Source of the DNA: Eledone cirrhosa
Taxonomy: Eukaryota
DNA: 64,000 nt
Direction: 5' to 3'
Assembly (NCBI GenBank): GCA_964016885.1
Contig: OZ024760.1
Location: forward strand, 14,508,001-14,572,000
The position numbers and the translations under genes are program-made. Positions 1,530 to 47,057 of the stretch are shown piece after piece. Each line of letters begins with the position of its first letter. Positions within the stretch are counted from its first letter, which is position 1. The notes under the pieces are model-generated. The model was given only the letters and a program-made list of their open reading frames with translations, was not told the DNA's origin and did no database searches.

Positions 1530-1567
<38 letters not shown>

Positions 1568-14770: not shown

Positions 14771-15000
14771 TTGAAGCATACATTCAGTATGCACCACTTT
14801 CCCCAACACTGTGACAACCAGCACCAGTACCACCACCACCAACATAATGACTACCACTAACAACAACACTGTCACCACTACTGCCTTTAAAACCATCATT
14901 ACCATCACCAGCATCACTTCTGCCACCATCATCACCACCACCACCACCATCACCATCACCGCCACGACCACCATCACCGCCACTACCACCACAGTTACAT

Positions 15001-15165
15001 CTATCTGCTTTCTTGATCTTTGACTGGTTTGGCTCCGTTCTGTATTGTAAAGATGCTGATTTCCGATGGCCGGATTTCTGTTGATGGAACTCTCTTGTGT
15101 AAGTATTCTGTGTTACAGTCAGTGTTGTATGTACTTCCGTTAGGGGTCTGTGTAACCATGTCCAA
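15001..15165 (-). CDS. Copy A exon 19, terminal ([11 protein letters not shown]...KDQESR*)
   Basis: (CT)n tract + ctgcag acceptor, phase 0, TAG at 15001-15003; identical in both copies. Confidence 0.72.
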   Translation of the reverse strand: MDMVTQTPNGSTYNTDCNTEYLHKRVPSTEIRPSEISIFTIQNGAKPVKDQESR

Positions 15166-18100
15166 CTGCAGAGAGAGAGACTGAGAGATGTGAGAATGTG
15201 TGTGAGAGAGAGAGAGAGAGAGAAAGATGTGAGAATGTGTGTGAGAAAGAGAGAGAGTTACTGAGAGATGAGAGAATGTGTGTGAGAGAGAGGGAGGGAG
15301 AGAGAGAGAGAGAATGAAAGAGAGGCAAAGGTTCTCAAAGTGGGAGGTCCAGGAGTCACTGGGACATAAGGGGGGTGGAGAGATGATATAATAGTATGTT
15401 AAATATCAAATATAGTAAAATAAAAAATATATAATATTTATTTATACATAATATATATTATATTATTTATTATATATGACAGCTCAATAAAAAGGTGCAG
15501 AGCACTAGAGGTCAATAGAAGCCGTGGAGTGAGGAGACCCAAGAAGATCTGGGATGAGGTGATAAAACACGGACCTTGCCCAATTGCACCTCTCAAAGGC
15601 GATGAGACAGAACCGTGACCTCTGGCGTCACGCAGTAATACAGAAGATCCAACTTCCCACGGGAACAAGCCGAAGCTGAAGGATATAGACAATATGCCCC
15701 CATCCCCTCCCACTGTAAAGTGGACGTGTAGGCACCACGGAAAAAAAGCACCCAGCACTCACTGTAAATGAGGTTGGTGTTAGGAAGGGCATCCAGCTGT
15801 AGAAATCAAGCCAGCATCAGTTCACATCTGAGCAAGACAAGGTCAGCTGATCTAACATTGCCCACAACAGGACAACCCGTCTAACCCATGCTAGCGTGGA
15901 AGAATCGATGTAAAACGGTGATGCTGATGAAATTGAGGATTTTATTTATTGATGGTGAACTGTGCCTCATCTTGTGCAAAGCACACTTTGTCTCGCTTAA
16001 GCCAGTGTGACTATGTTTTTGGTTACCTTGAATACACGTTTTGTTTGTTCTTTTTCTTCTAAAGCTATAATAACAGTCGATCAACAAGATCCCAGACCTC
16101 ATTCACTTAACGGATGGGGTAGAGTTCGTCAAATCGGATCAAGGAAACAATGTTTCCATTAGTCTTTCCAATTGCTAATACTATCTACTGGTCGCAAATC
16201 TAGGAAGAAGGAGCAACATGAAATAAAGTGTCTTGCTCAAGGACTTACAATAATAAAATGATTAAGATATTTAACCTCATCAGTGCACAGATGAAATAAC
16301 TCATCCTAACATGTTTGAACTTTTTTTCAACAGTTCATAACTTTAACGCTAAATGGGGTTACTAATTCATTGATGTGACGTTTGGCAATCATTCAGATAT
16401 GTGTTAATAAATGTTTGTTTCAAAGAATAGTTATTATACTGAAAAAAATGAAAAAAATGGCACTGCAACTGTAGCTGTGTAAAATATACACGGCAGTCAA
16501 CACTGCAACTGTAGCTGTGTAAAATATACACGGCAGTCAACAGATTAAGACTGTTTTTCCACAATGTACTGCCCCTTCAATAAAATTGAGAGGAAATAAA
16601 AATAAAAATAGAAAAAAAATCACCCCCAAAAAGAAGGGATTACCTCGTTGTCAAGGTCCAAGCCAGTGTTAGTGATACCAGACAATTTTGGTGTATTGCT
16701 TTTATGGTTTTTCTTGGTCTTTTTGATTGTTATGTCTTTTGCTGAGGAGTAAGCTGATGGTGCGAAGATACTTAATATCACCGGCAGAAACACAATACCA
16801 TGGAAGAGACCGAAAATAACAACCAGGAGGAATATCTAAGGAATATATATAAAACACAAAGACAAGGGTGAGATGAGTTGATGGAAACTTACAAAGTGGT
16901 AAGGTTGTCTCTTAAACCAGTTGTATCCGGCCAGAATTCTCTCACCTGTTTCTGTTCAAACCAATTCTAACTAGCCACGCATATATATATATATAAGATG
17001 AAATATATATATAGATGAAATGCAGTTTGGGTTTGTGGCAGGTAAAAGTACCACAGACGCTCTTTTCCTTGTACGACAACTACAAGAGAAGTACCTAGCT
17101 AAAAGTAAACCCCTCTACTTAGCTTTTGTAGACCTGGAGAAAGCTTTTGACAGAGTCCCCCGCTCCATTATCTGGTGGGCTCTTAGAAAACTAGGTGTAT
17201 ATGAATGTCTTGTGAGAGGTATACAAGCTATGTATAATGAAAGAGTCAGTAAGGTTAGAATTAACAATGAATATTGTGAAGAATTTAGCGTAAAAGTTGG
17301 CGTTCATCAAGACTCTGTCCTTAGCCCCTTCTTATTTATTATTGCCCTTCAGGCTATAACAGAGGAGTTCAAGACCGACTGCCCATAGGAACTCCTAATG
17401 ATCTAATGCTCATACCTGAATCAATGGCTGAACTAGATAAGAAATTCGAAACATGGAAGCATGGCCTAGAATCAAAAGGCCTTAAAGTTAACTTGTCTAA
17501 GACTAAAGTTCTAGTTTGTAGAAAGGAAAATAGGGCGCAGGTGCCCTCAGGGAAATGGCCATGCTCAGTGTGTAGGAAAGGAGTAGGCAGAAATTCCATT
17601 TTATGTCCCAAATGCAAAGTATGGGTACATAAAAGATGTAGTGGGATCACAGGTAAACTATCTAAGAACGTAGACTTTATATGTGGCCAATGCTCAGGTG
17701 CAATAAGTAGCAAGTGTCCAAAGGATACTAGCTCCTTCTATTGCCCAGATGGTTCTATAGAAATAATAGACACTTTCCGTTACCTGGGTGACGAAATCAG
17801 CAGTGGTGGAGGGTGTTCTGAAAGTACAGTAGCCAGAGTCAGAACGGGATGGAAAAAGTTCAGAGAGCTTATACCGCTGTTGGCCACAAAAGGTTTCTCT
17901 CTAAAAATGAAAGGCAGATTGTATGATGCCTGTATAAGAACAGCAATGCTACATGGCAGTGAGACATGGGCATTACGTGCAGAGGACCTGCATAGACTGG
18001 AAAGGAACGAAGCATGCATGCTCCGTGGATGTGTAATAGTAATATACGTGAACAGCAAAGCATAAATGAACTAAGTGAGAAATTAGGAATAAGAGGGATC

Positions 18101-20120
18101 AGATGCTGTTTACTTGAGAGAAGACTACGTAGGTATGGTCACGTGATGCGCATGAAAGACGACAGCTGCATAAAAAAGTGCAGGGTGATCAAAATTGATG
18201 GTAGTTACGGAGTAGGTAGACCCAGAAAAACCTGGGATGATCTGATAAATTCCGAGCTTACACACTTACATCTCTCTAAGACAATGTCTCTGGACCGAGA
18301 TCTTTGGCACTATGCAGTAATACAGAAGACCCGCCTTGCCTATGTACAAAGCGAAACCTACAGTCAGTAGGCACCTCTTAACCAAATATACACTCCAATC
18401 CACTACTCCTACCCTATCCTCCCACTCCTACCAACAGCACGAGATAATGAGATCGAGATCGTGTAGGTGTCACGACAAAAAACACACACAGTCCACGCTG
18501 TAATGTGGCCGTGTAGGTAACACGGTAAAAAGTTCCCAGTTCCACACTGTAAATGTGGTTGGTGTTAGGAAGGGCATCCAGCCGTAGAAAACCTGCCAGA
18601 TAGTCCTATATGAGCGAGACACGGTCACCCGACCAGCCTTGCCTCAAGTGGAACAACTCCCGTCTAACCCATGCTAGCGTGGAAAATGGACGTTAAATGA
18701 AGATGATGATGATGATAAGTATATGTATATATATTTATATGTATGTATATATATATATATAAATGAAATAAATGAATATATGTGTATATACATATATATA
18801 TTCTATTATAGCTGTAAGTTTCATGCTTAAGAAAATTTATCAAAGCATTTTGTTAAGTTTCATAAACCTATCTATAGCACAGATTGCCATCATCCCAGTA
18901 TAGGCCACCATCTCAATTGGAAAATTATCCCTTAACCCTTTGGCATTTAAACTGGCTGTAACTGGCCAGAATTCTCTCATCTCTTTCTGTTCAAACCAAC
19001 TGTAACTAGCCCATTCATACCAACGTTAACCCTTTAGCATTTAAACTGGCTGTAACAGGCCAGAATTCTCTCACCTCTTTCTGTTCAAACTGGCTGTAAC
19101 TGGCCGCTCATACTGATGTAAAAGTATTGTTCTCGAAATAAACAACATCAAAATCTCATAGATTCAATATTATGTGAGATAATTATGTAAGATAAAGCCT
19201 TTACCACAAAAATACAATAGTATATATAAAGTAATGTAAATGCTAAAGGGTTAAGGTATTGTTATCAAAATAAATAATTAGGTGAGGTAAAGCCTTTACT
19301 ATATTACCTTAAAAAACGCCTTGAAGGGGTATGTAGAACTCATGGATAAGGGTACCACAGCAATGAGGGTGCTAAATCCACCGTGGAATACAGGGGGACC
19401 TATTTCTTTCATAGTTATAATCATTCGATCTGGAAATAAAAAGTATAAAGTTAGAAGTTGGTATGTTGTTATGGTTGGTGTGGATGTTTTTGATGGTGGT
19501 GGTGTTTGAGGTGGTGATGTTGCTGATGGTAGTGATAGTAATGTTAAATGTGGTAGTAGTAGTAGTGATGTTGTTGGTGATGTTAATGTTGTTGATGCTG
19601 GTGGTGGTGGTGTTAGTAATGGTAGTCGATAATGATGATGGAGTTAATGATGATTTTGCTTGTAGCAGTAGTAGTATCAGCAGCAGCAGTAGTAGTAGTG
19701 GATGAACAAAAACAAAAACAAAAATATGAAAACATGAAAGATGCTGACTGTTATTTGCTCTTCATATATACAGGTGTGTATGTGTGAGAGTATATAGATA
19801 GGTATATATACACATGTGTCCATGTGTATATGTGTATGTGAGTATGTAGGTGAGTATATATATATATATAAGTGGAAATATCCAAGAGTAAGAGCTCTCA
19901 GTCCATAGGACGAGTTTAGTATAAAGAAAAGGTGTTTTTTTTAATTAAAAAAACAACCTTTTTCTAAATTACCTGCTCCTGTGTAAACTCTCATGTTATA
20001 TTCCCATAAGGAAAGCACAATCAACCCTAAACGGCTATCTTTAGTTTTTTTTTCTCATGACAGGCTGAATGAATTGGGGCCCAGAAACCAACAAAACTTG
20101 AGTACCTCTTTATGTTGTAA

Positions 20121-20164
<44 letters not shown>

Positions 20165-23100
20165 AGTTTTGTAGCTTGCTTGAAGCATTGTTTAATAGGA
20201 AATCTAAATCTAAATTTTGAAGACCAATACAATGCGTATGAAGAATGTTAAATTGCCAAAATAACAAAAGATAACAAAAGAATCTTACCTTAGCAAATTT
20301 AACGATCCCAAATATTTTAAAATACGTTTAAAACCCATTATAAAGGGAGTAACTCGATGAGAGACTTAATTATCGATCAGATAGACTTACTTGTGTGTGT
20401 GTGTGTGTGTGTGTTTATGTTCATGTCTGTCTGTTTTTATATCCTGTAACTTAGTAGTTCCATAGAAAAAGATTGACAGAATATGTACCAGAATTCAAAA
20501 ACAAAATTTATTTTGAAAGATAACTGCTGGAGTCAATATGGTCGACTAAATTAAGGCAGTGCACCAGCATGGCCACATTGAATAATGATTGAAATCAGTA
20601 AAAGAATAAGAGAATACTGACCATTGCTTTTGCCCTTCAATGTCATGAACGTGAAGCCAATGTGGACAGAGTAGTCTACTACGAGGCCAACTGCAATGGT
20701 CATTATCACACAGGATGTTGTATCAATGTATAGACCCCATATATTTATAAAGCCACTTACATCCACCTGAATTTTCAAAGGGGAAAAAAAAACAAAAAAA
20801 AACATTATTAAAATACAAATTTAACCCTTTAACATTTACATTAATCTATATATACTATTGTATTTTTGTGGTAAAGGCTTTATCTTACCTCATTATCTCA
20901 TACTATCGAATCTATGAGATTTTGATGTTATTTATTTTCAGAACAATACCTTAACATCAGTATGAGTGGCCAGTTATGGCCAGTTTGAACACAAAGATGT
21001 GAGGGAATTCTGGCCGGATATGACCGGTTTAAATAATTTTAAATATTTGAAAACCCTACAATGCATACAAGATTAAAAGTGCCATACATTCACACATACA
21101 TTCACACATACATTCCCACAAACACACACATACATTCACACATACATAGCATAACAAATGGAATGCCAGCTGCTATTTTGCTAATTTTTTCACCACCTAC
21201 TTCCTTCCTTTTACACACACATGCATTCACGCAGGCAGCAGACGTAAAGAGAGAGGAGTAGTATAAGGTAGTCAAACTACTCCTCTCTCTTTACTTGTAC
21301 ACACACATACATACGCACAGGCAGTAGACCTAAAGAGAGAGGGAGAGTATGAGGTAATCAAACTACTCTCCCTTTATGTGTTGTGACAGAATCACAGAAA
21401 TTTATATATCTCTTGTGACGCTAAACTCCGCCAGTTTCAGACTGCACATTAACATGTGATATCTCTCTCCACAAAGTCCGATCACCAGCAGCAGAGTTCA
21501 AAGAGCAAAGGACAAGTCCAGTCCATAGATTGACATTATCAAGCCATCGTTTTGGCTGCCGGCCTCTGCTTCTCTTACTAGCCAACCTTCCCTCCAGGCA
21601 TAACCTACTCACACCACGAGTTGATCTTTTTATATGGTCGTATAGTTTGAAATTTATATATAGATGCTTCCAAAATCTTCAACATCATCATCGTTTAACG
21701 CTAGCATGGGTTAGACGGGAATTGTCCCATTTGAAGCAAGATTGGTCAGGTGACCGTGTCTTGTTCGTATAGGACTGTCTGGCAGGTTTTCCACGGCAGG
21801 ATGCCCTTCCAACCACATTTATAGTGTGGACTGGAACCTCTTTACCGTGTTACCTACACGACCACATTACAGCATGGACTATTTTTTTTTTCATTTATTC
21901 AAATACAATGTATTTCATTATAAATACGGTAATGAAAGAGTTAAATATCAATAAAATCATCTGCTACTTACCAAAGTGAAGATCACGCTGAGGACCACTA
22001 TAAGTGATGTCATGCAATTCATTATCATTATTGTAGTAATCACAAATACTGATACAAATGCCAGACACAAGTTCTTTTTGATTTCCCATTCCAAAATCTG
22101 GAAAAAATCTCAAAAATATAACCAAATGTCAATAAAAAAACCTGCAGTAAAAATAAACATTTCCAGATTTATATATGGGCAAAATGTGTGACCACATAGG
22201 GCAGTGACTCCCAACGTGGGGTGCACACCCCACAGGGGGGCAATTTGAATATTTAACCCATTAGCATTTACATTATTCTATATTTACTATTGTATTTTCA
22301 TGGCAGGTTAGTGATTGCCAAAGTGGGGTGTACACCCCACAGGGGGCAGACTTTATACCATATTCTTGCCGTGGAAGCCAACAGAAAGAAGAGAACATCA
22401 TTGTAGGAGGGGTGTCTCCGACATTGACACTCTACTGAGTGAAACTTGAGCATCCAACACACAAGAGTTGAGGACACTTGATGGACATAGTGGACGGGGG
22501 GAAGTGTGTGAATTCTGTTGGACATTCTTGAGGACAACCAAATTGAAATTGAATACATTCTTGAAGGGGTTCAATACTTGGGAGAGAGAGAGAGAGAGGA
22601 CATGTCCCAAGTAGATCCTATAGAGTTACCAGCTATTAGAATTGACAGTAGTACAATTGAAAGTATTGTGCATACCTCCACCAAAGTATAGTTCTCAAAA
22701 TAAATAACATCAAAATCTCATAAATTCGATATTATGTGAGATAAAGCATTTACCGTGAAAACATTGAGTGTGTTTTATTATATATTTCTGGCAATATTAT
22801 TGTTTCTATTTTTGGCACAAGGCCAGCAATTATCCCAGTGTATTACTGGTACTTTATTTTATCGACCTCGTAAGAATGAAAGGCAAAGTTAACCTCGGCG
22901 GGATTTGAACTCAGACCGTAAAGGGACGTAACTACGCTGGAAAGCATGTCTGACCCTCCACCAATACTGCCAATTCACCGCCCTTTAATATTTCTGGCAA
23001 TATTATAACAATATGACCTTCCCCAAATATAACAATATTTTTTATTGTTGTTTTTTCTTATCTAGCCTAGTGGCCAGCTAAGCTTGCCCAAATGCCCATA

Positions 23101-26100
23101 AATGCTTGTCTACTTCTGATAGTATGATCGAATTTAAAGTGTGGAGTGGAAAGGAAATCATTCGGTTTATCAAAAATGTTCATCTCACCTCATTGATACG
23201 CCACTGTAGGTAGTTTTCAGACAAAACGAAACAACTTGAACGGTTGAAGTATTTTGCGACACGATCTTCTAGGTCTTTCATAATATTCATTTTCTGGAAA
23301 TTTCTTGTCACCTTTATCATTCTCATAGAAATTTTAGTGATCTGCATATGAACATTAACAAACAAAAAACAATAAATAAAAACAATGAGCACTGTCTGTT
23401 GAGTCAGTCAACTTACCAAAAAACCTGTTTTATGAAACAAAGAACTGCTTTAAAGGGTTCCTGTTTAACATTTTTTATATCAATTCACCCCAAACCAGGT
23501 CTGTTATAAAACAAACCTGACCATTTTAACCCTTTAGCATTCAAACTGGCCAGAAATCTCTCACCTCTTTCTGTTCAAACTGATGTTAAGGTATTGTTCT
23601 CAAAATAAATAATATCAAGAGCTTATAGATTCGACATTATGTGAGATAATTATGTGAAGTAAAGCCTTTACTGTGAAAATATAATAGCAAATATAAAAAG
23701 TTAAAGGCTAAAGTCTGTTTCAAGCTTGGAGGCTTATCTCGGTTTTTGTGGTGTGAAATGATTCAGAATGCAAGACTCCCTCCCGACAGGATGCTAGAAA
23801 TATGGTAATGAAAGGGTTAACCCTTTAGCATCTACATTACTCTATATTTACTATTGTATTTTTGTAGTAAGGACTTTATCTCACATAATATCAAATCTAT
23901 GAGATTTTGATATTTATTTTCAGAACAATACCTTAACATCAGTATGAGTGGCTGGTTACAGCTGGTTTGAACAGAAAGAAGTGAGAGAATTCTGGCCAGA
24001 TATGGCTGGTTTAAATGCTAAAGGGTTAAAGTATTTATATTTATCTAAAAAGCCATCCATTATAATTCTATGTAAAAGCTTTTGTTAAGTTATATTCCAA
24101 ACAACAGCCAAATAATGAGAAAGTTAGTTATATTATGAAATCCCTCCAAATTCTCTATTTTCAAGATAATTTGAAAATTATAGGGAACATTTTTATTCAC
24201 AGTTTTATAAATAACATTATAAATTGTTTATAATTCTTAAAAAATGAAAATATAAACACATGTAATTGTTTCTACATTTGGCACAAGGCCAGCAATTATC
24301 CCAGTGTATTACTGGTGCTTATTTTATTGACCCCCGTAAGGATGAAAGACAAAGTTAACCTCGGCGGGATTTGAACTCAGACCATAAAGGGTCGTAACTC
24401 TTTGCTGCAAAGCATGGCGTCAGACCCTCTACCAATTCTGCAAATCCACCGCCCTCAAAAATAAATACATATAAATACATATAATAAATGCAATTAATTA
24501 TTGCTCGGAACCTCACAAATATAATGCACAAAATTATATGATCAAAGTGAGAGTAAAAGAAAAAGAACAAAACAAAAACAACCATCAATTCACCACCAAG
24601 TGTGACAAATGGCTGTACGCCTCAAGAGTCAATGGAAAAGTTCAAGGTAAGCGAACATGCTAGCAACATTACCGTGAGTGATGGCAAGGCTAAGGCACTG
24701 AAACAATCAGACACACTCAGAAGCATCATCTGACACGTCAGTAAGGTGAACAACCAATGGGGACAAGAACTTCGCTGAGAGCGACCCAACTCCACCAGTG
24801 ACTCTCACAATTACCGCGACATCCATGGTATGGGAGGTAGCAAGGGAGTCACCGATTGTGGCATACCAGATGAGACATCTGCCTCTTATCCAGGGACAAA
24901 GGGTAAGGCCATCTGGTCTCTTCCCATCTATTCTGGATAATCCAGCTGACTCCAGAAGTGTGGGGATATTTACCTGAGATAGGGTCTGCTTAATGATCAG
25001 GTTTAGCTTGGTGTGGCGGGTGAAGTTACCATCATTCTGGCAGCAGGACAAACCATGGAGGCTTGTGGAGTCAAGGGACCTACTACAGCGCCATCTCAGA
25101 CCCCCACAGACATCGGCTCCCACTCAGAGTGCAATGGAGATGCAGAGCTCATGCACTATATTTGTGAGGTTCCTAGCAATAATTAACTGTGTTTATATTT
25201 TCATTCGGTAAGAATAATAAATGATTCATAATGTTATTTATATAAAGCAACGAATTGGCAGAATCATTAGAATGTCAGATAGAATGCTTTATGGTATTTG
25301 TTCTAGCTCTCTGAGTTCAAATCCCACTGAGGGCAACTTTGCCTTTCATCCTTTTGAGGTCGATAAAAAAGTACCAGTTTAATATTGGGGTCGATTCTTC
25401 CTCTATATCTCTTTCTCATTTCCTCTCTCTCACTTTCTATCTTTCTTTTGAAGAAATCTGTTGTACTCAGACCTGGAGAGGGATGGGCTCCGCCAGGTTT
25501 AAAATGACCAACAAATGGTGTATGTCAATATGGTGCCCCCTACAACTCTATCAGAAGTTACAGAAGAAAGGAAAGGGAAAAAACTGCAAATAAAAAAAAT
25601 GTTGTATGAAGAAATCTAATATAAAAAAAAAAAACAATGTCTTTCATTAAAAATATGGTAATGAAAGGGTTAATGTGTTTATATTTATTTAAAAACCTTC
25701 CATCATAATTTTATGTAATAAACTTCAATATGATATGTTCCATGAGAAATATGATGTTGAAAGGGTTGAAGTGTTTATATTTATCAAAAAACATTTCACT
25801 ATAATTTTATGTAAGAACCTTTATTCTGTTATGTTCCTTTAGAAATATAATTGTTTCTACTTTTGGCACAAGGCCAGTAATTACCCAGTACATTACTGGT
25901 ACTTTATTTTATCGACCCCGTAAAGATAAAAGGCAAAGTTAACCTCAACGGGATTTGAACTCAGACCGTAAAGGGACATAACTATGCTGGAAAGCATGGT
26001 GTCCGGACAAAACAATGTAACTACTCACTGGAAATGATATTCTTCTGTTGAAACAGTTCATTTTTTGGGGCGGCAATGTGCAGATGGAATGATCAAAAGG

Positions 26101-26499
26101 GTTGCAGGATGTTTTATAATTAATTGGAGAGTTATTTGTGGTGTTGCCATCTATGCATTTTCCTGATTTGCAGTTGCAATTCAGCATGTAATTTTCATAG
26201 CAATTGCAACTACTTACAAAAGACGATGTGTTCAAGGTGACTTTGCAGTTTTTGATGTCTAGAGGTGAAGGAAACATTGATGATTCACAGAGTGTTGGTG
26301 GGCAAATGTAGGACTTCTTCACCAAGCTCAAGCAGGTATATTTTATTTGTCGTTCGATGAACCAATGGTAAGGTTTGGCCTTAGGTGATAACCAAAACCT
26401 ATCCATTAATTCCTCAAAGTAGTTGAAGGTACTGTTGAATTCTGATACAGAAGAAAAATATTATTTTTATCAACAACCTCCACAAATAAACAAATATAA

Positions 26500-26564
<65 letters not shown>

Positions 26565-26886
26565 TTGTCCCCCAGTAGTCGCAGGGGTTATGTCCCTAGA
26601 GCACCTGTGAAGAGTGAAAAACTGCGAATATTGGACATGGTCCATAAAATGCCTATAAATGTCAAAATATAACGTAAAATATAATAAAAAAAAAGAGGGA
26701 CCATCTTATGCAAAGGGGTATCCAATAGGCCAGCAAATATGGTATATTTTTGTCAATAATTTAGCATTAAAAAAACCATTAAAAGAATCGAGGAATATAT
26801 TTATGATTCCATGAATATGCGGTGGTTTCCACGAACACAATTATTAGTTAGGTTCTAAAGAAAATTCCGCGAATGCCGGAGGTACA

Positions 26887-26958
<72 letters not shown>

Positions 26959-26979
26959 TGTTATACTTTGGGAGGTACA

Positions 26980-27033
<54 letters not shown>

Positions 27034-27068
27034 TGTTATACTTTGGGAGGGTCATGTTGCCAGAAACG

Positions 27069-27105
<37 letters not shown>

Positions 27106-27228
27106 AATGAAAGTATAGAAATTATTGTGAGCGTGAAGCCAACAGTATTTCATAATATATAAGTGACTATAACGTCAAAATGGAAAAATAGTTAACGTAA
27201 GATGTGGGAAAATAATTCAAACTCAATT

Positions 27229-27268
<40 letters not shown>

Positions 27269-29624
27269 AATTGAGTTTGAATTATTTATATATATATATA
27301 TATATATATTTGACAAGTATGTTTTGAACAGCGAGCAAGTTTGAAAATAGAAATAGAAGCATTTACCATGTTTTTTACTAAAGAAATTTTAGCCTGACAG
27401 TGGGGTTTAGAGCCCTTTAAGAAATGGAAAAAGATGAGTATTGATGTACAATACTCATCTTTTTCCATTTCTTAGAAGGTTCTAAACCCCACTGTCAGGC
27501 TATATTTATTTATTTATATACAATATATGACATTCGTGCATCATCATCATCATCATCATCACAATATTAAGCCTTTTCGCTATGTTGGAAAGGTTTGGAT
27601 GGGTTGTCACAGTCCGAGAGTAGACAGATTAGAAAATGACATCTTGCTCAAATAAGTAACTCTAAGCAGGGATGTATTAACCATTAAGTAAAATAAGCAC
27701 ATTCTTAAGGGTTCTATAGAGTTTTTTTCATATACAGTAAGAATGGTCTTTTGTATTAATGCTTCCATCATAAATTTATATAAAAATACCTTTGTTAATA
27801 CTTTTAATATCGAATTACCTGAAACCACAACTGGTTTGATGATGCTTATTTAAACCCTATAGCATAGAATCGAACTTACAACCTGTCAATTGCAAGCCCA
27901 ATGCTCTAACTACTAAGCCATGCGCCTTCACTAGGGCAGCAAGAAACTGGAAGAAAATCCTATAGGCGAGATGTGTGAATCTGGTGCTCTATTTAAACTT
28001 GTCAAGATGAGGAAATAAAAAGAGGAAAGCTATTCAAATCAATTCCCATGATAATATTTATAAAAAAAGCATCGAGAGGTAACAATACAATTGTAGAGTT
28101 GGGCCGCTGACTGCAAAGTTCTTGTCATCACTGGTGGCTCACCTTACTGAGGTGTCAGGTGATGCCCGTGAGGATGCCTGGTTATTTCAGCGCGTTAGCC
28201 TTGCCATCACCCGTGATAATGCTGCAAGCATATTGGCTTGCCTCAAAGTGTTTAGTTAACCCCCATGCGGCCGATTATCGCACTTGGTGGTGAATTGCCA
28301 CTCACCTCCTTTTTTTTTTCTTTCCTTCATCATTATTGTTCAATGAATTATATTATTATATTTTTATACACGGTTTAGACATTATATTTGTAATATTCTT
28401 CTGAACGAGTTGCGAGCATTTTATAATGTTATTTACGCATTTTTAATGTCATTTATGTATACTAGCAAATAAATCACCCGAAGTATGGTTTTTCTGCTAG
28501 CATGTGTAGTGTGCATATTGATATTATATGCACACTACACATGCCACTTTATAGTGAGTACTGAGTGCTTTTTGTTGTGACCCCAACACTACCACTTTAC
28601 AGTGGGAGGAGGTGGGGGCATACTGTCTGTGGGTCTTCTGTATACAAAGATGAATGTATACAGAAGAAGAAATATATAAGATACTTTCAAACATGAAAGA
28701 TTTTCTGGCATAACAGAGCGAACCCACTTTCTAGGCAGCAGACTTGGCAATAGATGTGATATAATCATTCCAGCTCAAATCAGTGTAAAATATCAGACCA
28801 AGAATGTGTATAGAGTTGTTCTATTGGAGGATATGATTAGCCATACTAATGGAAAGCAAAAGTGGTTCTCTATGGCAATTAAAAAAGAGCATTTTAGTCT
28901 CAGAACTAGAGATCAAAGGTCATGTTCAAGATCAGCTGTCAATTCAACTTTATCAAATACTAGCATAAGAACCCGTCGTTGCCGGGCACACCTTTAACCA
29001 GTGTAAATAAAGATCCCCCTTTCTCCTCAATGTTGCCATCTTCAAATTGCCCTAGAACTCTGCTATTTTAGGGAAGAGCAAGATTTAAACTATATGTTGA
29101 CATGCTCTGGGAGCTAAATAACCTATGTATCAAATTTGAACAAAATCAGATGGAAAGTGTGGAAATGCATTGGCTACATACAGACAGAGATTTTCATTTT
29201 TATATATATAGATATCAGACTTACCAGATGTTCTGTTCCACTCAAGGAATGCAGACAGCCAATCAACTGTGTAGTTTGGTTGTATGTAAGGACTCTGAGA
29301 CAGGTCATTTGACATGGCTTCTAGAGCATCCATATGCTCCACATATCTAATATCTTCTGGAAAAACACACACATATATAGAAATGGCAACATAAATGGAC
29401 AGGTTATTTTTCTCTAAAAACATTTTTTCCGATTCCGCCCTGCCTGTCCCTTCATTCTTTCTAATTTCTCATTCTTTCTTCTGATGAAGGACTAAAGTCC
29501 GAAACGTTGAAACCCTCTTAATGCTAATTCAAGTGTTAAACTAATATATTCCTTCCATATACTGAACCGTTTGTGTTGTTATTTCTGTTTACCTTTTACA
29601 TACATATATATATATGTATATATA

Positions 29625-29682
<58 letters not shown>

Positions 29683-32600
29683 TATGTGTGTGTGTGTGTG
29701 TGTATATATCACCTTGATCACCTTGACTGACCAGCCTGTCGGGCGCCATCCGGCGCCGCTGGTCACAGCCCATGCTGTTTTAGCCATACGATGATGCCAT
29801 CCCACTGGCTGGGCGGGCAGGCCGTAAGTCTAAACTCATGGCGTGAAGCGACTGAGAGTACAAGACTCCCCCTGGACAGGACCACAGTCCATCGCAGGGT
29901 TAAACCTCCAGCTATTGCTGGTACTCATTTTCAGCTGAGTAAACTGGAGCAACGTGAAATAAAGGTGTCTTGCTCAAGGAAACAACAAATCACCCGATCC
30001 GAGAATTGAACTCACAACCTTTCGATTGCAAGCCTACTACTCTAACCACTAAGCCATGTGCCTTCACTGTGTGTATATATATATATATATCCTCTGGGGT
30101 TAGGATATGCCTATGAGAAATGCAACCTTCAGTCTCCAGGATGTATGGTAGAATTTCAATATTTTAGGAAGAAAACAGCGTCTTCGATACCAGGAAATAT
30201 GGTATGTAGATCCTGAGTAATATTGGGGGATAACCACAGTTAAAAAAGGTACTCAATACATTAGTAGAGTGTAAGTATTTTTATTTAATATAGAAATACT
30301 TCTACAGGACTAGAACTGTTTCATCCGTATGAAATCATCAGGATATTCTTGATGATTCATATGTAGAGGTATTTATATATATAGATAGAAGTATATATAT
30401 ATATGTAGAGTTATATATATATATATATATATATAAGAACAAAGGGGAGGTGTTACATAGGAGATGTTTTGTTTATAACGTTTATTGTCTTGTAACGCTT
30501 GTTATATGTGTGTCCGTTGGATTCTATATGCTTGTTTGTCTCTGGCTGGTACGTCCACAGATTTGATGTGATATTTGTTGTGTTAACATTGGTCTGAGGA
30601 TGAGGCAGACTTGGAGACTTGTCTGGGATGACTCCCAGATCATGAGCCGACTGCTTGAGAAACATTTGTAACAGGGTTGAGCAATAAATCTCTTATGTAA
30701 CACCTCCACTTTGTTTTTATTATATACACTCTGATCAGCATCGAGTGCTGACCTTGGTACTCTCACCAGTTTTCTTTGGACTTACTGAATCTTTTGCATG
30801 TATATATATATATATATATATATACATGCAAAAGATTCAGTAATATATATATACATATATATAACGAGATAAGCAAGAACCGGAGAAAATTTTTCTTCAA
30901 TTTACTCATATATATATATATATACATATATATATAAAACAAACAAAATGTGTATGTGCATACATATATGCATGTGCATACATATATGTATGTGCATACA
31001 TATATGCATGCACAAAATGCACAATGTTTCAAAGATTGGAGGATATGCAAGAATCAATGTTGATGAGGAAACTTACTACAATAAACACCAACTTCATGTA
31101 ATAGAAAATACTTCTCATTGTTTATGAAGTAGCGGTAGTAGTGAGAATTGGTTGGATACATCACTCTCTGCCAGTTGTTATTTGTCTGCAGTTGAGTTAT
31201 ATTCCAGGAGCAGAAACCCACCATTATAAGTGTCACCAATATAACTGCTGCCTAACAAAGGCCAAAGAAATTGAAAACATTTTTTTAAATAAAAAATAAA
31301 AGTAAAAATTAAATAAATTGGGAGTTTGAAAGCTATGACAATGTGGGTTTGGACGGAGAAACAGAGTTTACTGGGTGAACAAAAGGATTGAATCAAAGTG
31401 ATAAACACTAACCTTAACAGGTTTTCTGCAAAGGATTTTCGTTGCAAAGGTAGAAAATACTGTACTCAGCAGATCCTTTTTACTGCATTCGTTTGGAGTG
31501 TAATCGGTGTGTTTGTAACAACAAAACAGTCCATCTCGGTTGTCGAGAATTCTCCTTAAATCTATAGACACACAGCTTGCAAAAAATGTAATTTGCATCA
31601 AATAGATAAGCAGAATTCCAATGCAGTTGTAAAGACAAAACGTACGAAGACCTGGAAATGCCTAGATGAACACAAAAACACAACTACATATAGTTAAGAG
31701 CATGCTGTAGTTTGCATAGAGGAAGGTGAAGAAAAAAAATAGTGTTTTTCAGAAGGCTACTGTAATGCAAAAAGGACATTAAAATATGCCAGCATAAGAA
31801 TAATACAAGGTATCCCACTCTGATGTAGATGCCTTAACTCTACTTTTGATGAAGGCATTCTATCCTGGAATATTAAGGATTAATTAAAACTTTACCATTT
31901 ACATTACTCAACATTTATTATTGTATTTTCACAGTAAAGGCTTTATCTCACATAATTATCTCACATAACATCTCACATAACATTTGCATTACTCTACATT
32001 TACTATTGTATTTTCACAGTAAAGGCTTTATCTCACATAATTATCTCACATAACATTTACATTACTCTACATTTACTATGGTATTTTTACAGTAAAGGCT
32101 TTATCTCACATAATTATCTCATATAATATCTCACATAAATTTACATTACTCTACATTTACTATTGTATTTTCACAGTAAAGGATTTATCTCACATAATAT
32201 CAAAGCTATGAGCTTTTAATGTTATTTATTTTGAGAACAATACATTAACATTGGTATGAGCAACCAATTACAGAAGGGGGGGGGGGAATTCTGGCTGGAT
32301 GCGGCTGGTTTAAATGCTAAAGGGTTAAGCACCTCCAAGGTAAAATTCCTACAACTTTGTTAATGTTATTTTTAACAGACAACATTCTATTTGAATTGCT
32401 GTTTCCATCCGAAAACCCCCTCACTAAATTATACACCACATGCTGTATTACAAAATGAAAAAAAAACGAAATTTACAGCTCCCATCTATGCAGATTTAAC
32501 TGATCTTCTACAAGGCAGTATCTTGTAGGAGGTTTTAGGGTGTTTTAATGATAGGGACCCCAGTTCTATCATGCTGTTGTTACAGCTCACACCTATGCAG

Positions 32601-35600
32601 GTTTAGCTGAATTCTTACAAGGTTGCATCTGATAGAAGGTTTCTTGGGTGTTCTCATGATTGGGACCCCAGTCCTATTATGCTGTTGTTACAGCTCACAC
32701 CTATGCTTTTCATCATAGGAATTCTAGTCCTATCATGAAAAGCAACATCAAGTGTCTCGTTGAAGAACACAACATGCCACACAGCCCAACAACCTAACTA
32801 CTAGGTCACACACCTTACAATCATATATGTACATGTAACACTCTGTAATGATTTAGGAAAAAATCATTTATTAAAAAAATGTTTGTTAATTCAAATGTTT
32901 ATAGTATCTTTACTACTGGACAGATTGTGGTGAAAATGTGCAGTTATAGTGTAAAGATATTAATTTTAAATGTGATGCAGTCATAGTGTCACTTTGCATT
33001 TTTTCAGAATGTCTTGTTAATGTTGTTTCATGTGGTTCGTTAATTAAAATGTGTATAGTATCTTTACAAGTGGACAGATTGTTGTGAAAATATACAGTTT
33101 TAGTGTAAAGACATTAATTTTTATGTGATGCAGCCACAATACTGTTTTATATTTTTCAACCATGTCTTGCCAATGTGGTTTCATGTGGTTTGTTTATTAA
33201 AATGTTTATAGTATCTTTACTAGTGGACAGATTGTGATGAGAATTTCAGGGTAAAGACCTTAATTTGTTTATGTGATACAGTCATAGTGTAGCTTTTGCA
33301 CTTTTCAAGAATGCCTTGCTAATGTGGTTCCATACAACTACAACAATACAACAACAACAATACAAACAACAACAACAACAATACAAACAACTAGAGTAAC
33401 TACAACAACTTACTGAAGTAGCTCCGATTGCAAAAGCAATGATGTCACTGAGTGTTGTGATAGTGATAGAAACACCAGCATGTTTCATAATGAGACCAAT
33501 CTGTTCATGCACAGGACGATCTTTTTCCAATGCTGATAAGTTGTTCAGTGCTCCAAGAATCACAAACATGTCATCAATACCAATCCCTAAAGTCAAATAG
33601 ATAAATAAATTCATTTAAAAGAATTAAGAAACCATGTAAAGGGGTTGGCATAAAAAGGAGCATACAGCCATAGCATACATGCATGACCCCGTAACTCTTG
33701 AGGTCTGGTTTCTAGGGCATTTTTAAACCTGGCAGAGCCCGTCTTCTTTCCAGATATGAATACAGTAGATTTCTTCCAGAGAAGGCTAGAGAGTGAGAGA
33801 AAGATAGGAGATATAGAGAGAGAGGAAGAATTGACACTAGTACTAGACTGGTCCCTTTATTTTGACCTTAAATGAAAGAAAGGCAAAGTTGACCTCGGCA
33901 CGATTTGAACTCAGAGAGCAGAGAGTCGGAACGAATACTGCAAAGAATGCTATCTGACATTCTAACAACTCTGCCAATTCACCACCTCTATCCAGCCATA
34001 GAAACCACACCAAATAAGGATAGAGCAGACATCTAAGGCATGACAAACTCTCTAGGAAGGGTATCCAGCTCTAGAAACCACAGTAAGTAAGGGCAGAAAG
34101 GACAATCCAGTTGTGTCAAGGATATGAGAACCTCTCTAGTGCTAGTACCATGATTAAATGCACCCAGTACACACAGTCATATAATTGTCATTAAGAAGGG
34201 CATCCATTAATAGAAACCACATCAAATAAAGGTGGAGAAAGCTCTTCAGTTGTGTCAAAGATATAACATTTTCCTTAGTGCTGATGCCACTATAAAATGC
34301 ACCTAGTGCACCCTGAAAAGTGTTAGTGAGAAAAGAGGGACTTACCAAGAAGCAAAAGGGCTAAAACTCTATTTAGGATTCCATAATTGATGTTCAATAA
34401 GCCACCAATACCAAGTGTAGTGAAGTACCCAATTCCAATACACATGATACCAACAAAAGCTAGGCCTATCTGGAATAAAGGTACAAACAGAAGTCATAGG
34501 TATATATCTCTTTTAAATATGTTACTTATTCATTTTTTTATTTATTTTCTGGTTTGCATTAGTGTTAGTTTTAGGATTAGGATTAAGGTTAGGGTTAGAT
34601 TTAATATTAGTGTTAGAGGGAGGATTATAATTAGGTTAGCATTAATGGTAGGCTTTGGGTTAGAGGGTTGAGCGAATTGTAGGTTTAGGGTTGGTTAGAG
34701 ATAATGTTAATAGTATGGTTAAAGTAAGAGTTAGGGATAGAGTTAGCACTAGGGGTAGAGTTTGGGTTAGGGTTAGGGCTAGTGCTAATGAAGTAGAGTT
34801 AAGGCTAGAGTTAAGATTAGGTTTAGAGTTCAGATTAGAGGTAGTATTAGGATATAATTATGACACCAGCACCATACAATTGTGTAAGAGGGTTAAGCTT
34901 AGAGTCAGGTTTAAGGTTAAGGCTAGTGTTGGGTTTAGATCAGGCATGGGCAACCTTTTTCAAGAAGTGGGCCGCATGAGATATGGCTCATCATTAGGCG
35001 GGCCGCAAACGCTAACTTACATTCATGCCCACATTAAAAAAAAAAGGGTGGTAACTCAGGTTGTTTTGATTTGTTTCCTCAGAATTTGTACACATTGTTT
35101 TCCTCAATCGTAAAAATGATAGAAAGATAAATTACGACTGAAAAGTTGGTGTAAAAAAATGAGAAAGATTTCACTTAGGTGACTTAGGCGAGCCATTCAG
35201 AAAGCTTTGCTGGCCACATGTGGACCACAGGTTGCCCATGACTGGTTTAGATTAAGGTTAGAATGAAGCAGGGTTAAGAATGGTGTAAGGTTTAGCCTTA
35301 AGTTTACAAGTACAGTTAATGATAGGGTTACAGTTAAGGTTAGTGGTAGAGTTAGAGGTTAGGGATAGTGTTCAGGTTATAGGTAGCATTAGGATATAAA
35401 TATGACACTAGCACCATACATTTGTCCACCAGGGTTAAGGTTAGTGATAGAGTTAGAACTAAGGTTAGGGTTAGTGGTAAGTTTAGGGCTAGGGTATAAA
35501 GATGAGAGCAGCAGCATACTTTTTGATCAAGAAGGTTACATCTTCCGAGACAGATTATGATGTAAATTCCCATAATACTGTATCCAATGAGTACAAACAT

Positions 35601-36515
35601 GATGTCTTCTTTAAAGGCTGTGCCATACTCAGTGAAGTCACTGCAAATAGAATATTATAGAAGAAACTGATTTGCCAAACACCTAAGGGACATACGACTA
35701 GGTAAAGACACCCCTGTCACTTGTCACTTCCATTTCCCCAACCACTCTACTCTAACAGCTCACTGTCTCAGGCCTCCTTTCACTCTACGGATCCACAGCC
35801 ACTCACAGCAGGACCGAGCAGAACTTAATTTTCTGCCATGGAACCACTTTTCCAAATAGACTCAATTACCCCCCCCCCCACACACACACACATACAATTC
35901 CTAAAACCTTCCATTACCCTTGCTCTCACACACAAACACACACACATATATACATACTCACAACTCCAGCCATCACACAATACACACCCACATTTACAAC
36001 ATCCATATATACCACCCAACACACATCTACTTCTGCACACACACAACCATCAATCCTACACTTACTGATGCATGCACATATATGTACACATGGCCACACA
36101 GACCAGCGACACACATTACAGTCCTAACATCCGTGTGTGCTTGTATCTCTTGCGCACTTATCTGTGCTCGTGTGGCACCCAGTGCTGTGGCTGTGCCATC
36201 AGCAGTGTTGAATGTTTCCTCCATCCTCACTACTTCCCATGCACTTAATGACTTCACACCTTCCAGCTTAGCTGTTTATGGTTGTACCACCGTATTGTCA
36301 CATCTGAAACAATGCAGCTTCTTTTACAACCATACCACATAATGAGATATCCAGGCCATGACCATATTCACTACCTCCTCTTTTCTACACAGACCCTCTC
36401 GGCTGCTACTATGTGTATTCTTGTACATCCCTTTACTTGGTCAGTACACATGCTTATGCTTACTCACATATCCATACTCTCACAACAGCCATATATATGT
36501 ATATCATATACACAC

Positions 36516-36552
<37 letters not shown>

Positions 36553-37431
36553 CATACACACATATATATATATACACATATATATATATATACACATATA
36601 TATATATATATACATACACACATATATATACACATATATATACATATATATATATACATACACATATATATACTCATATATATACATATATATACATACA
36701 CATATATATACTCATATATATACATATATATATATATACATACACATATATATACTCATATATATACATATATATATATATATATACATACATATACATA
36801 TATACATATATAAACACATATATACGTATATACAGAAATAAACACATATATACACATATATATATATATATATATGTACATATATATATACATATATATA
36901 CACACATATATATATATATATATATACACATATATATATATACATATATATACATATAAACACATATATACATATATATACATATATACACACATATACA
37001 CACATATATATACATACACATATAAATACATATATACACGCATATATACATATATCTACATATTAATACGCTCGTACCGTATGTCCGACTGTGTGTGCCA
37101 CGCTTTCAGTAATATAAATAAAAGTCGAATGACGTCCGTGAGCCGTGCTAAAACAATGGAAGGGGGGTGGTAAACAATCTACGAAAATCTACGGAGAAAG
37201 AAAATCAAAGAGCATTGCAACGTTTGGAAAGGAGAGAGAGATGGGGTTATAACATATTTAGAGAGAGGGGGCTATAATATAGAGAAAGGGATGGGTTATT
37301 ATATATAGAGAGAAGGGTGTTATAATATATATATAGAGAGAGGGGGTTAGATATATATATATATAGAGAGAGGGTGTTATAATATATAAGAGGGGGGGGG
37401 GTATCTTTCTCAACGCCGGGTTATTCAGCTA

Positions 37432-37471
<40 letters not shown>

Positions 37472-38062
37472 GTTTACATATACATAAAGTCATAGATATA
37501 TATGTTGCAACCAGTCACGTTGTGGCTCTATGAAGAATTAATAAATTAAATAAGCAGAGCAATATATCAGAAATTATGTCCTTAGAATTATTAGATAAAA
37601 TATATTCTTTCTAACTTGACCACTGCCACGTCACGATTCTTAGCCATTTTTTAATCTATTTTTGGCGCGATCACTTTGGAAAACTAAATGTATAATTTCG
37701 AGTTTGTCTCCTGATGAATCCGATACTCCAGACACATCCTATTAATTGGATGTCTAAAAATACGGATGCAACCATGGTAGAGATATAATTACGGTATGTA
37801 CACATTTCTTCTAAGTTTGAATTTGCGCCTAATTGTGTATGGTTGATGTTATATTTAGTCAGTTTCTACATGCTGTTGAAATGTTGGATAAATACTCTAT
37901 AGGGGCCACCGCGAAGAGGCCGCTTTCGGTTATTTGTCGGAAATTTCTTCATAAGAGCCTTTATTCTTATAGCTTGGTCTAATTGATTTTTTATATGGTT
38001 AATTATGCTAATTGGGAGAGGAAATGGTATATATTTTATCTAATAATTCTAAGGACATGATT

Positions 38063-38138
<76 letters not shown>

Positions 38139-38205
38139 CTAGGGAGTGTAACTTGGAGTTACTGCAGGTTCACCCATGAGTAACCAATCGTCCTTGTTAT
38201 CTTTT

Positions 38206-38243
<38 letters not shown>

Positions 38244-38460
38244 TGGACACTGGAATAGTTCCTTTATTTTCCTCAGAAGAAGAGATATTAATCCCGAAAT
38301 ATCAGGACATATGAATAAATTAAGATAAAAAAACAAACCTTGTTTCTTACAACATAATTATTTCCATCCAACTCGGACTGTCGTGGCTTTCAAACTTCGA
38401 ATTCTTTACATGTATATATGTATATGTACATAAAGAGAGAGAGAGAGAGAGGGAGAGAGA

Positions 38461-38553
<93 letters not shown>

Positions 38554-41466: not shown

Positions 41467-41498
<32 letters not shown>

Positions 41499-44400: not shown

Positions 44401-46018
44401 GTCTCATCCCAAGGTTTTTGGATAAGAGATTATGAACATGTACTGAACTAACAAATGCCAAAGGTACATGCCTTGTCTACATATATACCACCACTTTACC
44501 GAGTGTGCTTATTGCATTTTATTGTGGCACCCACACTAGAGAAGTTATCATGCTCTTGAGACAGCTGAAAGGTCTTCTCAACTCTTTGTTTGGCATAGTT
44601 TCTTCACCTGGATGCCCTTTCTAGTACTAACCGCTTTACTAAGTGTACTGGAAAAAAGTGAAATAGGAGACTTTTCCACTCACCTGTGAAATTTAGTGTA
44701 GTTATCCACATCTTGTAATATCTGGTCATGTGTTAAGTTCTTGATCTTTCTTTCGTCGTATTCCCACAATTTAAGCAATGAGTCAAGTCGGCAAATATTC
44801 CTATTAAAATGGGAATAATGTATGTACACATACATACATCTGCTCACACATATTAACTGTTTTGATATCAACATGACCAAAACTAACTCTAGTTCTATGA
44901 AAAAAAACACCCATTAATATGGGTTCCGAATTTAAATTAAAAGGGTTCATATTTGAATTTAGATAACCCAGCATAATATTTTATAAGAACCATATGTTAA
45001 CCCTTTAACATTTACATTATATATATATATTATTGTATTTTCATGGTAAAGGCTTTATCTCACATAGTATCGAATCTATGAGATTTTGATATTATTTATT
45101 TTGAGAAAAATACCTTAACATCTGTTTGAGTGGCTGGTTATGGCCAGTTTGAACAGAAAGAGGTGAGAGAATTCTGGCTGGATATGGCTGGTTTAAATGC
45201 TAAAGGGTTAAGTTACTATCTTAGTAATGAAATAATTAATAACTTTTGTAAATCCCTCAAAATTCTTCACTAATTAATTGAAATACAGCATATTTCATTG
45301 GAAATATGCTGTATTATATGGATGTATATTTTCTTATTACTTTATTAGTTTCAGTCATTAGGTTATGGTCATCCTGGAGCACTACCATTATTGGTTTCAG
45401 TCTTTAGACTTTAGTCATGTTGAACTACTGCTTTGAGATTTCAGTTCATCATTTCAATCACAGTGCATTTTTTGAAAAGAATGATACTTATTTTATCGAT
45501 CTTGTTTTCTGATCTGCTAGGTCACAACAGCAACAACAATCACTACTACACCAATAACAGCCCCAACAAAAACAAACATTACTACTACACAAATAATCAT
45601 AACAACAACAATAATAACCACAACCACAATCATAACAACACACAACCACAATGACCATCACTACCAAAACAACAATAACAACAACTGCAAGAATGACACC
45701 AACAACAACTTACCATTTACAGTAAGTCTTTATATTCATCCTCGTAACATTTATAGAAAGGACTATTTCATGGAGTTCATACATCTGAAAGGGGGAGAGT
45801 GAGAGTGTGTATATGTAAGAGTGGGAGAGAGAATATATATATACATTATAAAGAAAGAAGAAACATTAGATATAATTAATAAGATATACCGTACCCAAAT
45901 TCCTTCATTACTCCTCGACTACGTAGTTTCGTGGCATATTATGCAAAAACACTACATCACAGAGATACAGTATTTTTGTGAGGTTTGTCGACATGTGTTC
46001 GCATGTATCTGTGTATTT

Positions 46019-46065
<47 letters not shown>

Positions 46066-47006: not shown

Positions 47007-47057
<51 letters not shown>

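What the first reader, a model, noticed from the sequence alone, without database searches (positions are those of the whole stretch)
26053..26334. 94-aa, 12-cysteine module inserted in luminal domain 2 of a PTCHD-like protein
Seen: exon 13 encodes C-x9-C-x4-C-x13-C-x12-CxC-x7-CxC-x4-C-x16-C-x7-C-x8-C with N-glycosylation sequons (NTS, NTT, NNS). It lies between the recognisable [14 protein letters not shown] segment and the ITKISMR segment. Established: in PTCHD/Ptr proteins this linker is usually short, and the NPC1 Cys-rich loop sits earlier, between the WxDD and FL motifs. Inference: the even Cys count suggests up to 6 disulfides forming an added extracellular knob, possibly a new ligand- or partner-binding domain on a Patched-family transporter. 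I do not recognise it as EGF, LDLa or a similar known module.
Basis: partly seen in the sequence, partly recalled or inferred. Interest (0 to 1): 0.7.

Follow-up and report, generated by a model that had tools for sequence, protein, structure and literature searches.

The report
Cephalopod-only cysteine knob on Patched-like transporter
Octopuses, argonauts and cuttlefish carry an extra module of about 95 amino acids with 12 cysteines, matching no known domain, in the outer part of a Patched-family membrane protein; it sits where human Patched binds its Hedgehog signal and likely serves as a disulfide-locked docking knob for a still unknown partner.

Summary
Observation confirmed. Exon 13 (26441-26029, minus strand, 413 nt) of an intact 19-exon, 1086-aa PTCHD3-like/Ptr gene encodes a 94-aa module with 12 cysteines. 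Contigs of one run end exactly at both splice sites. An intact inverted copy of the gene next door keeps all 12. The module also occurs, 12 of 12 cysteines invariant, in Octopus vulgaris and O. sinensis, three Argonauta paralogues and a Sepia cluster. It is absent from 115 of the 120 listed homologues. A profile search of 1.84 billion representatives gave 5 hits, all this same exon. Pfam, PDB sequences and Foldseek gave no match. A profile alignment places it at the ECD2 hairpin tip, the position of PTCH1's Shh-contacting loop 943-969 and downstream of NPC1's Cys loop. AlphaFold suggests a beta stalk with a small knob (pLDDT 73 alone, 35-55 in context). Both RND acidic motifs are intact. Residues between the cysteines are poorly conserved (median 16%), which argues against a conserved ligand such as Hedgehog. 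Verdict: a real, coleoid-restricted orphan domain on a known transporter type; a partner-docking role is inferred and untested.

The parts
26053..26334 (-). 12-Cys module (aa 685-778 of gene A), first to twelfth Cys
   Evidence: 12 of 12 Cys invariant in 8 carriers
26029..26441 (-). Exon 13 of gene A, 413 nt, phase 1 to 0; holds the module and both predicted stalk strands
   Evidence: AG/GT and frame; contig ends at both borders
26317..26349 (-). Predicted N-side stalk strand, includes Cys1
   Evidence: AF2 DSSP E9-19
26035..26067 (-). Predicted C-side stalk strand, includes Cys12
   Evidence: AF2 DSSP E103-113
15001..49030 (-). Gene A: 19 exons, 1086-aa PTCHD3-like/Ptr protein. Exons 49030-48702, 46791-46524, 45784-45714, 44800-44684, 42387-42285, 38816-38734, 35640-35520, 34469-34346, 33586-33414, 31661-31413, 31251-31077, 29356-29225, 26441-26029, 23341-23189, 22097-21972, 20766-20622, 19429-19308, 16835-16644, 15165-15001
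   Evidence: collinear with the O. vulgaris protein P0002
33570..33586 (-). TM4 GxxxDD motif (GIGIDD, aa 406-411; first codon split by the intron)
20671..20688 (-). TM10 GxxxD motif (GLVVDY, aa 906-911)
1..6108 (+). 3' part of inverted paralogue B (end of exon 15, exons 16-19 at 832-976, 2287-2408, 2714-2905, 5944-6108). B starts 28.7 kb before the window; its exon 13 (G000:C21 about 14505110-14505537) keeps all 12 Cys and has 5 extra residues

Best explanation
A spliced exon adds a 12-cysteine module to the tip of the second ectodomain of a Patched-related membrane protein in coleoid cephalopods, and this module likely folds into a disulfide-locked knob on a beta stalk that likely docks a fast-evolving extracellular or luminal protein partner, which would gate or position the predicted lipid transporter. 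Shown: the exon, the intact gene pair, the cysteine invariance, restriction to one clade among the proteins examined, the intact RND motifs and the lack of any database match. Inferred: six disulfides, the stalk-and-knob shape, outward projection from the ectodomain apex, ion-coupled sterol or lipid transport, and partner binding. The partner is probably not Hedgehog itself.
For: Cys 12 of 12 invariant across octopod and cuttlefish carriers while the median non-Cys identity is 16%, against 32-36% for flanking ECD2 and 68% for TM8-12: a fixed scaffold with a variable surface. The profile of 116 relatives aligns the strand after the insert with PTCH1's IEYAQFPF, so the insert takes the place of the loop just before it. 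PMC9917202 (passages) names that loop (943-969; E947, D951, E958) as a Shh-contacting loop and says PTCHD1 has a 23-residue hairpin there. AF2 puts confident strands on both sides of the insert in the full O. vulgaris protein (E653-661 and E758-773, pLDDT blocks 80 and 86) and a compact domain for the insert alone (pLDDT 73). GxxxDD and GxxxD are kept in all 7 carriers checked; these motifs are needed for C. elegans PTR-18 function (PMC8104386 passages). Ptr-type proteins engage protein ligands: Drosophila Ptr co-precipitates Hh (PMC9446084 passages), and PTR-18 clears GRL-7. One gain on the tree, SH-aLRT 100.
Against: No partner is identified. The variable surface, net charge from -2 to +4 and 1-4 unconserved sequons differ from PTCH1's acidic Shh pocket and fit a glycan shield equally well. 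In the full-length model the insert has pLDDT 35-55; for the insert alone only 1 of 5 models passes 70 and pTM is 0.59. No coordinates were available, so neither the disulfide pairs nor the pairing of the two strands was seen. The PTCH1 alignment is gapped upstream of the site, so the positional match rests on the downstream strand and on the continuous NPC1 alignment. Tissue, cell location and cargo are unknown.
Confidence: 0.45

Rival explanations
1. The module is a glycosylated steric shield or spacer. It covers the ancestral ligand site so that Hedgehog-type ligands, proteases or pathogens cannot dock, and it binds nothing specific.
For: Every carrier checked has 1-4 N-glycan sequons at shifting positions and variable charge. 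It is the least conserved segment measured. A separate Patched-like gene exists in the genome, so Hh reception need not rest on this protein.
Against: A shield does not obviously need 12 exactly conserved Cys, plus the conserved short spacings C-x9-C, CxC and C-x4-C, across octopods and cuttlefish.
Confidence: 0.25
2. The module is a cargo-capture or hand-off domain that binds a sterol or lipid, or its carrier, and feeds the ECD tunnel, playing the part that NPC1's N-terminal domain and NPC2 docking play (roles recalled).
For: Whole-protein fold matches NPC1, NCR1 and PTCH1. The insert model loosely resembles small beta-barrels (best Z 5.6).
Against: No conserved hydrophobic pocket residues beyond Cys. 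The barrel matches are at generic level (Z under 8). The NPC1 N-terminal-domain family did not match.
Confidence: 0.13
3. The module mediates self-association of the transporter, or cell-to-cell or cell-to-matrix contact.
For: PTCH1 dimers touch loosely through ECD2 (PMC6534611 passages). C. elegans PTR-4 organises apical matrix (bioRxiv 10.1101/2021.03.30.437696, title and abstract).
Against: An even Cys count leaves no free thiol in 7 of 8 aligned carriers (P0005 has 13). In PTCH1 the ECD2 contact was dispensable for the tetramer.
Confidence: 0.1
4. The module is a tolerated, functionless loop expansion; its cysteines are kept only so that the ectodomain folds and passes ER quality control.
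For: Near-saturated divergence between cysteines. Between the young copies A and B the insert's pN (0.044) is not below its pS (0.036) (few sites, inflated by one indel region).
Against: No carrier examined has lost or shortened it (93-103 aa), although a short hairpin is enough in 115 relatives.
Confidence: 0.07

Closest known systems
Invertebrate PTCHD3-like / Patched-related (Ptr) proteins
   Same: 12-TM layout with SSD (PF12349 E 4e-36, PF02460 E 7e-29 on the O. vulgaris orthologue), two ectodomains, GxxxDD and GxxxD; 444 hits at E 1e-20 or better.
   Different: The equivalent ECD2 segment is 43-113 aa (median 66) with 0-2 Cys in 115 relatives, against 153-168 aa with 12-13 Cys in the carriers. 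The carrier clade has a long stem branch.
PTCH1 ECD2 loop 943-969 (Shh-contacting)
   Same: Same position, directly before the strand aligned with ITKISMR.
   Different: The PTCH1 loop is 27 residues by that numbering, acidic and has no Cys; the module is about 95 residues with 12 Cys and mostly neutral to basic. No sequence similarity.
NPC1 cysteine-rich luminal loop
   Same: A Cys-rich insertion in the same ectodomain of a related transporter.
   Different: It lies earlier, between the W.DDY and F..FL motifs; at the cephalopod insertion site NPC1 has only a short hairpin. Different Cys spacing; no profile match.
Bovine ultralong CDR H3 stalk-and-knob (analogy only)
   Same: A beta stalk carrying a disulfide-rich knob that binds proteins (abstract starts of PMC5994613, PMC12371982, PMC8602281).
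   Different: Unrelated scaffold; here the Cys pattern is fixed in the genome. No sequence or fold match was found.

Membership tests
PTCHD/Ptr (Patched-related) family | Sterol-sensing domain and Patched domain | tested here: met
   PF12349 and PF02460 over cut-off on orthologue P0002; the window's own exons match PF12349 over cut-off
PTCHD/Ptr (Patched-related) family | RND/Patched fold with two ectodomains | tested here: met
   AF2 pTM 0.78; Foldseek E 1e-31 to 1e-24 to PTCH1, NPC1, NPC1L1, NCR1
PTCHD/Ptr (Patched-related) family | GxxxDD in TM4 and GxxxD/E in TM10 | tested here: met
   7 of 7 carriers
PTCHD/Ptr (Patched-related) family | Transports sterol or lipid | not testable with these tools
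   Inferred from fold and motifs only
NPC1 proper | N-terminal sterol-binding domain and early Cys-rich loop in the C-terminal luminal domain | tested here: not met
   No NPC1 N-terminal Pfam hit; the family profile starts at NPC1 residue 316 and lacks the loop; a separate NPC1-like gene lies on contig C4
Canonical Patched (Hedgehog receptor) | Long ECD1 insertion and acidic ECD2 loop that bind Shh | tested here: not met
   PTCH1's ECD1 insertion is absent from the family profile and the ECD2 loop is replaced; a separate Patched-like exon lies on C3 (named by its recalled motif). Hh binding itself was not tested
Known Cys-rich modules (EGF, LDLa, VWC, SRCR, knottins and others in Pfam) | Profile match at the family cut-off | tested here: not met
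   0 families for the window peptide; best stray hits E 0.035-0.1 in 1-2 of 7 members; best PDB sequence hit SRCR/CD163 at E 2
Any solved fold | Structural match of the insert model | tested here: inconclusive
   Foldseek none at E 0.001 or better; VIA-align best Z 5.6, rmsd 3.1, 74 aligned, to a chain titled BBn6; the model is of moderate confidence

The most novel reading that the evidence does not exclude
The coleoid ancestor built a new disulfide-rich fold into the Hedgehog-binding position of a Patched-family transporter, turning it into a receptor-transporter for a cephalopod-specific, rapidly co-evolving ligand, and lineages keep duplicating the gene to diversify the knob.
Probability: 0.2. 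Interest if true: 0.8.

Novelty: new variant of a known kind. Interest (0 to 1): 0.52.

Why it matters
PTCHD/Ptr proteins are poorly understood transporters whose ligands are mostly unknown. Here one lineage has added an orphan domain at the site where PTCH1 meets Hedgehog. It is small, discrete and flanked by a conserved stalk, so it can be expressed alone as bait or cleanly deleted, which makes the question of what regulates a Ptr transporter testable in cephalopods. It is also a candidate new disulfide fold and a molecular marker shared by octopods and cuttlefish.

Tried and rejected
Word-based homologue search with exon 13 alone: 34 candidates, none at E 1 or better; it missed the orthologues later found through exon 10, so it shows low sensitivity, not absence. 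Own-genome search with exon 13: only copies A and B; the other 5 of 7 matches have E 0.38-8.6. Run search: no RNA holder listed; 4 runs of 1 study, kind not on record. The sequence beyond the contig ends was not identified, so the exon 12-13 and 13-14 joints were not seen directly. ESM Atlas on the O. vulgaris insert: best score 0.82, below the 0.9 threshold, a lead only. SRCR/CD163 similarity rejected (E 2). No known fold found, which does not show the fold is new. A candidate exon at 43059-42965 was rejected (frame break; the model without it is collinear with P0002). The careful bootstrap tree did not finish; the quick tree is quoted (47 rows chosen from the hits). Literature: no listing on this gene or insert (top rows only) and 0 papers for six accession numbers; supplements and subscription journals were not searched. 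Earlier-findings look-ups returned nothing.

Full report
1. Observation. It lies in a 413-nt exon, 26441-26029, with AG/GT borders. The model is collinear with the Octopus vulgaris protein P0002 across the junctions of exons 1-18; exon 19 matches its tail weakly (31%, E 0.06).

2. Is the exon spliced whole? Four runs of one study hold the stretch; none is on record as RNA. In run X2 a 1277-letter contig lies on 26098-26441 and then continues for 933 letters that do not fit the intron, and a 130-letter contig lies on 26029-26127 and continues for 31 letters. Both breaks are exactly the predicted splice sites, whereas a contig of run X1 reads on into the intron. The four differing letters of the long contig are the four differences between copies A and B in that stretch, so it follows B; the short contig matches A with no difference. 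I infer that X2 is RNA and that both copies are transcribed; what the overhanging letters are was not shown. Other support: O. sinensis RefSeq models carry the insert, and an unnamed 1109-aa protein with the insert sits on Logan contigs of at most 7453 bases, which suggests spliced transcripts. Two unnamed single-exon read-through proteins leave the frame at the same place after the last Cys as the window's donor does, suggesting a shared exon border.

3. A second copy. An inverted, tail-to-tail duplicate runs from 28.7 kb before the window to window base 6108 on the plus strand; most aligned blocks are 92-98% identical (range about 83-99%). It is intact, keeps all 12 Cys and has 5 extra residues between Cys11 and Cys12. 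No other copy of the module was found in the genome. A PF12349 search (35 candidates scored, a lower bound) found this pair and loci that read as NPC1, Dispatched, SCAP and Patched (names from recalled motifs), but no insert-less PTCHD3-like gene.

4. Distribution. With P0002 residues 300-985 as query, 444 proteins scored E 1e-20 or better and the best 120 were listed; the other 324 were not examined. Five of the 120 carry the module: O. vulgaris, three Argonauta hians proteins and one unnamed protein whose 90% cluster includes Sepia pharaonis. The other 115 (gastropods, bivalves, arthropods, cnidarians, echinoderms, hemichordates, a bryozoan, and unnamed records) have 43-113 residues (median 66) and 0-2 Cys over the same segment. 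A profile of 7 module sequences run over 1,835,955,588 representatives returned 5 hits at E 0.001 or better: two Argonauta proteins and three unnamed sequences that are this same exon and resemble the cuttlefish form. So it was never seen alone or in another protein. On a quick tree of 47 selected rows, built on columns filled in at least 30% of rows, the 9 carriers form one side of a branch (SH-aLRT 100) with a long stem, cuttlefish sister to octopods. One gain before the octopod-decapod split is the simplest reading. Nautilus and vampire squid were not seen, so the exact node is open. The window's genes group with octopods.

5. Conservation pattern. All 12 Cys are invariant in 13 of 13 rows of one alignment (it contains near-copies) and in 8 of 8 divergent carriers. 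Between the cysteines the median identity is 16% (range 9-70, 28 pairs), against 32% and 36% for the flanking ECD2 and 68% for TM8-12. Length is 93-103 aa. Sequons (1-4) and net charge (-2 to +4) vary. Invariant Cys in an extracytoplasmic loop is the usual sign of structural disulfides (established knowledge); the pairing was not determined.

6. Known domain? None found: Pfam 0 families for the window peptide, PDB sequences best E 2, Foldseek none at E 0.001, VIA-align best Z 5.6 among 48,161 chains, Atlas best 0.82. The AF2 model of the module alone (7 sequences) has mean pLDDT 73 and pTM 0.59; the other four models score 47-61. It shows a long strand through Cys1, three short helices, a hairpin carrying the two CxC motifs, two short strands and a long strand through Cys12. 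In full-length P0002 (116 sequences, pTM 0.78) the flanking strands are confident but the insert is at pLDDT 35-55. I infer a beta stalk closed by Cys1-Cys12 carrying a knob; no coordinates were available to check this.

7. Where it sits. The profile of 116 relatives aligns continuously to NPC1 here: NPC1's Cys-rich loop is upstream, and the insertion site matches its short hairpin near residues 1021-1037. In PTCH1 the strand aligned to ITKISMR is IEYAQFPF, and the loop just before it carries residues whose spacing matches E947, D951, M956, E958 and Y971 named in PMC9917202 and PMC8847689 (passages read). PMC9917202 lists ECD2 loop 943-969 among three Shh-binding loops and notes that PTCHD1 has a hairpin there and does not bind Shh. 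The alignment to PTCH1 is gapped upstream, so this match is good but not residue-exact.

8. How it most likely works. The body is a Patched-family RND protein with both acidic motifs intact, so ion-coupled sterol or lipid transport is likely (inference; motif role from passages of PMC8104386 and PMC9917202). The module would project from the ectodomain apex, at a position that a relative uses for ligand contact. A fixed disulfide frame with a variable surface is how many binding knobs are built, and Ptr proteins in fly and worm engage Hh-type proteins (passages of PMC9446084 and PMC8104386). I therefore favour a docking knob for a protein partner (0.45). The variable, non-acidic, glycosylated surface argues against Hedgehog itself and keeps a steric shield (0.25) as the main rival; cargo capture (0.13), self-association (0.10) and a neutral loop (0.07) follow. 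That the module is a real folded coleoid domain I put at about 0.9.

9. Against my reading. No partner, tissue or localisation data. Fold confidence is moderate. Between A and B the insert shows no sign of purifying selection outside the Cys (pN 0.044, pS 0.036), while the SSD region has 0 non-synonymous changes over 542 sites; the counts are small and the insert's is inflated by one indel region.

10. Novelty. The transporter type is known; the module is not in Pfam or the PDB, and no paper on it appeared or 93 (listings only; supplements and subscription journals not searched). New variant of a known kind, interest 0.52.

Noticed in passing
window 1-6108 (+) and G000:C21 about 14479318-14508000: Complete, intact inverted duplicate of the gene, tail to tail with gene A, 8.9 kb between the stop codons; contigs of run X2 carry letters of both copies.
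   Followed up: yes
gene A vs B, aa 140-330 and 685-778: Non-synonymous differences between the two young copies cluster in ECD1 (17) and the insert (10), with none in the SSD region; overall pN 0.017 vs pS 0.015 (exons 1-18 model). Could be relaxed or diversifying selection on the ectodomains, or gene conversion elsewhere.
   Followed up: partly
P0005, P0006, P0008: Argonauta hians has three knob-bearing paralogues with near-consecutive accessions, each on a contig of the same length (likely one cluster), duplicated independently of the pair in this genome.
   Followed up: partly
P0019, P0034, P0047, P0117 and other arthropod rows: Many arthropod relatives have a single Cys in the same hairpin, about where Cys1 of the module lies; mollusc relatives lack it. 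Homology or coincidence is not resolved.
   Followed up: no
gene A aa 221 and 226; P0007, P0124: The ECD1 cysteine pair present in octopods and in the family profile is replaced by W and L in the cuttlefish cluster.
   Followed up: no
G000 contigs C1-C4 and C21: No insert-less PTCHD3-like gene was found in this genome (lower bound), and no insert-less named cephalopod protein was among the 120 listed hits, whereas gastropods and bivalves show several paralogues.
   Followed up: partly
window 13371-14860, 17002-18370, 55766-54321: Decayed reverse-transcriptase-like (LINE-type, recalled) fragments between the two genes, in intron 17 and upstream of gene A.
   Followed up: no
window about 47600-48640 and 42450-42910: Tandem repeats (about 48-base and 37-base steps in the self-matches) in introns 1 and 4, shared with copy B; they give long Cys-rich chance frames.
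   Followed up: no
window about 25845-26005: A very high-copy short interspersed element begins about 25 bases downstream of the exon 13 donor in copy A.
   Followed up: no
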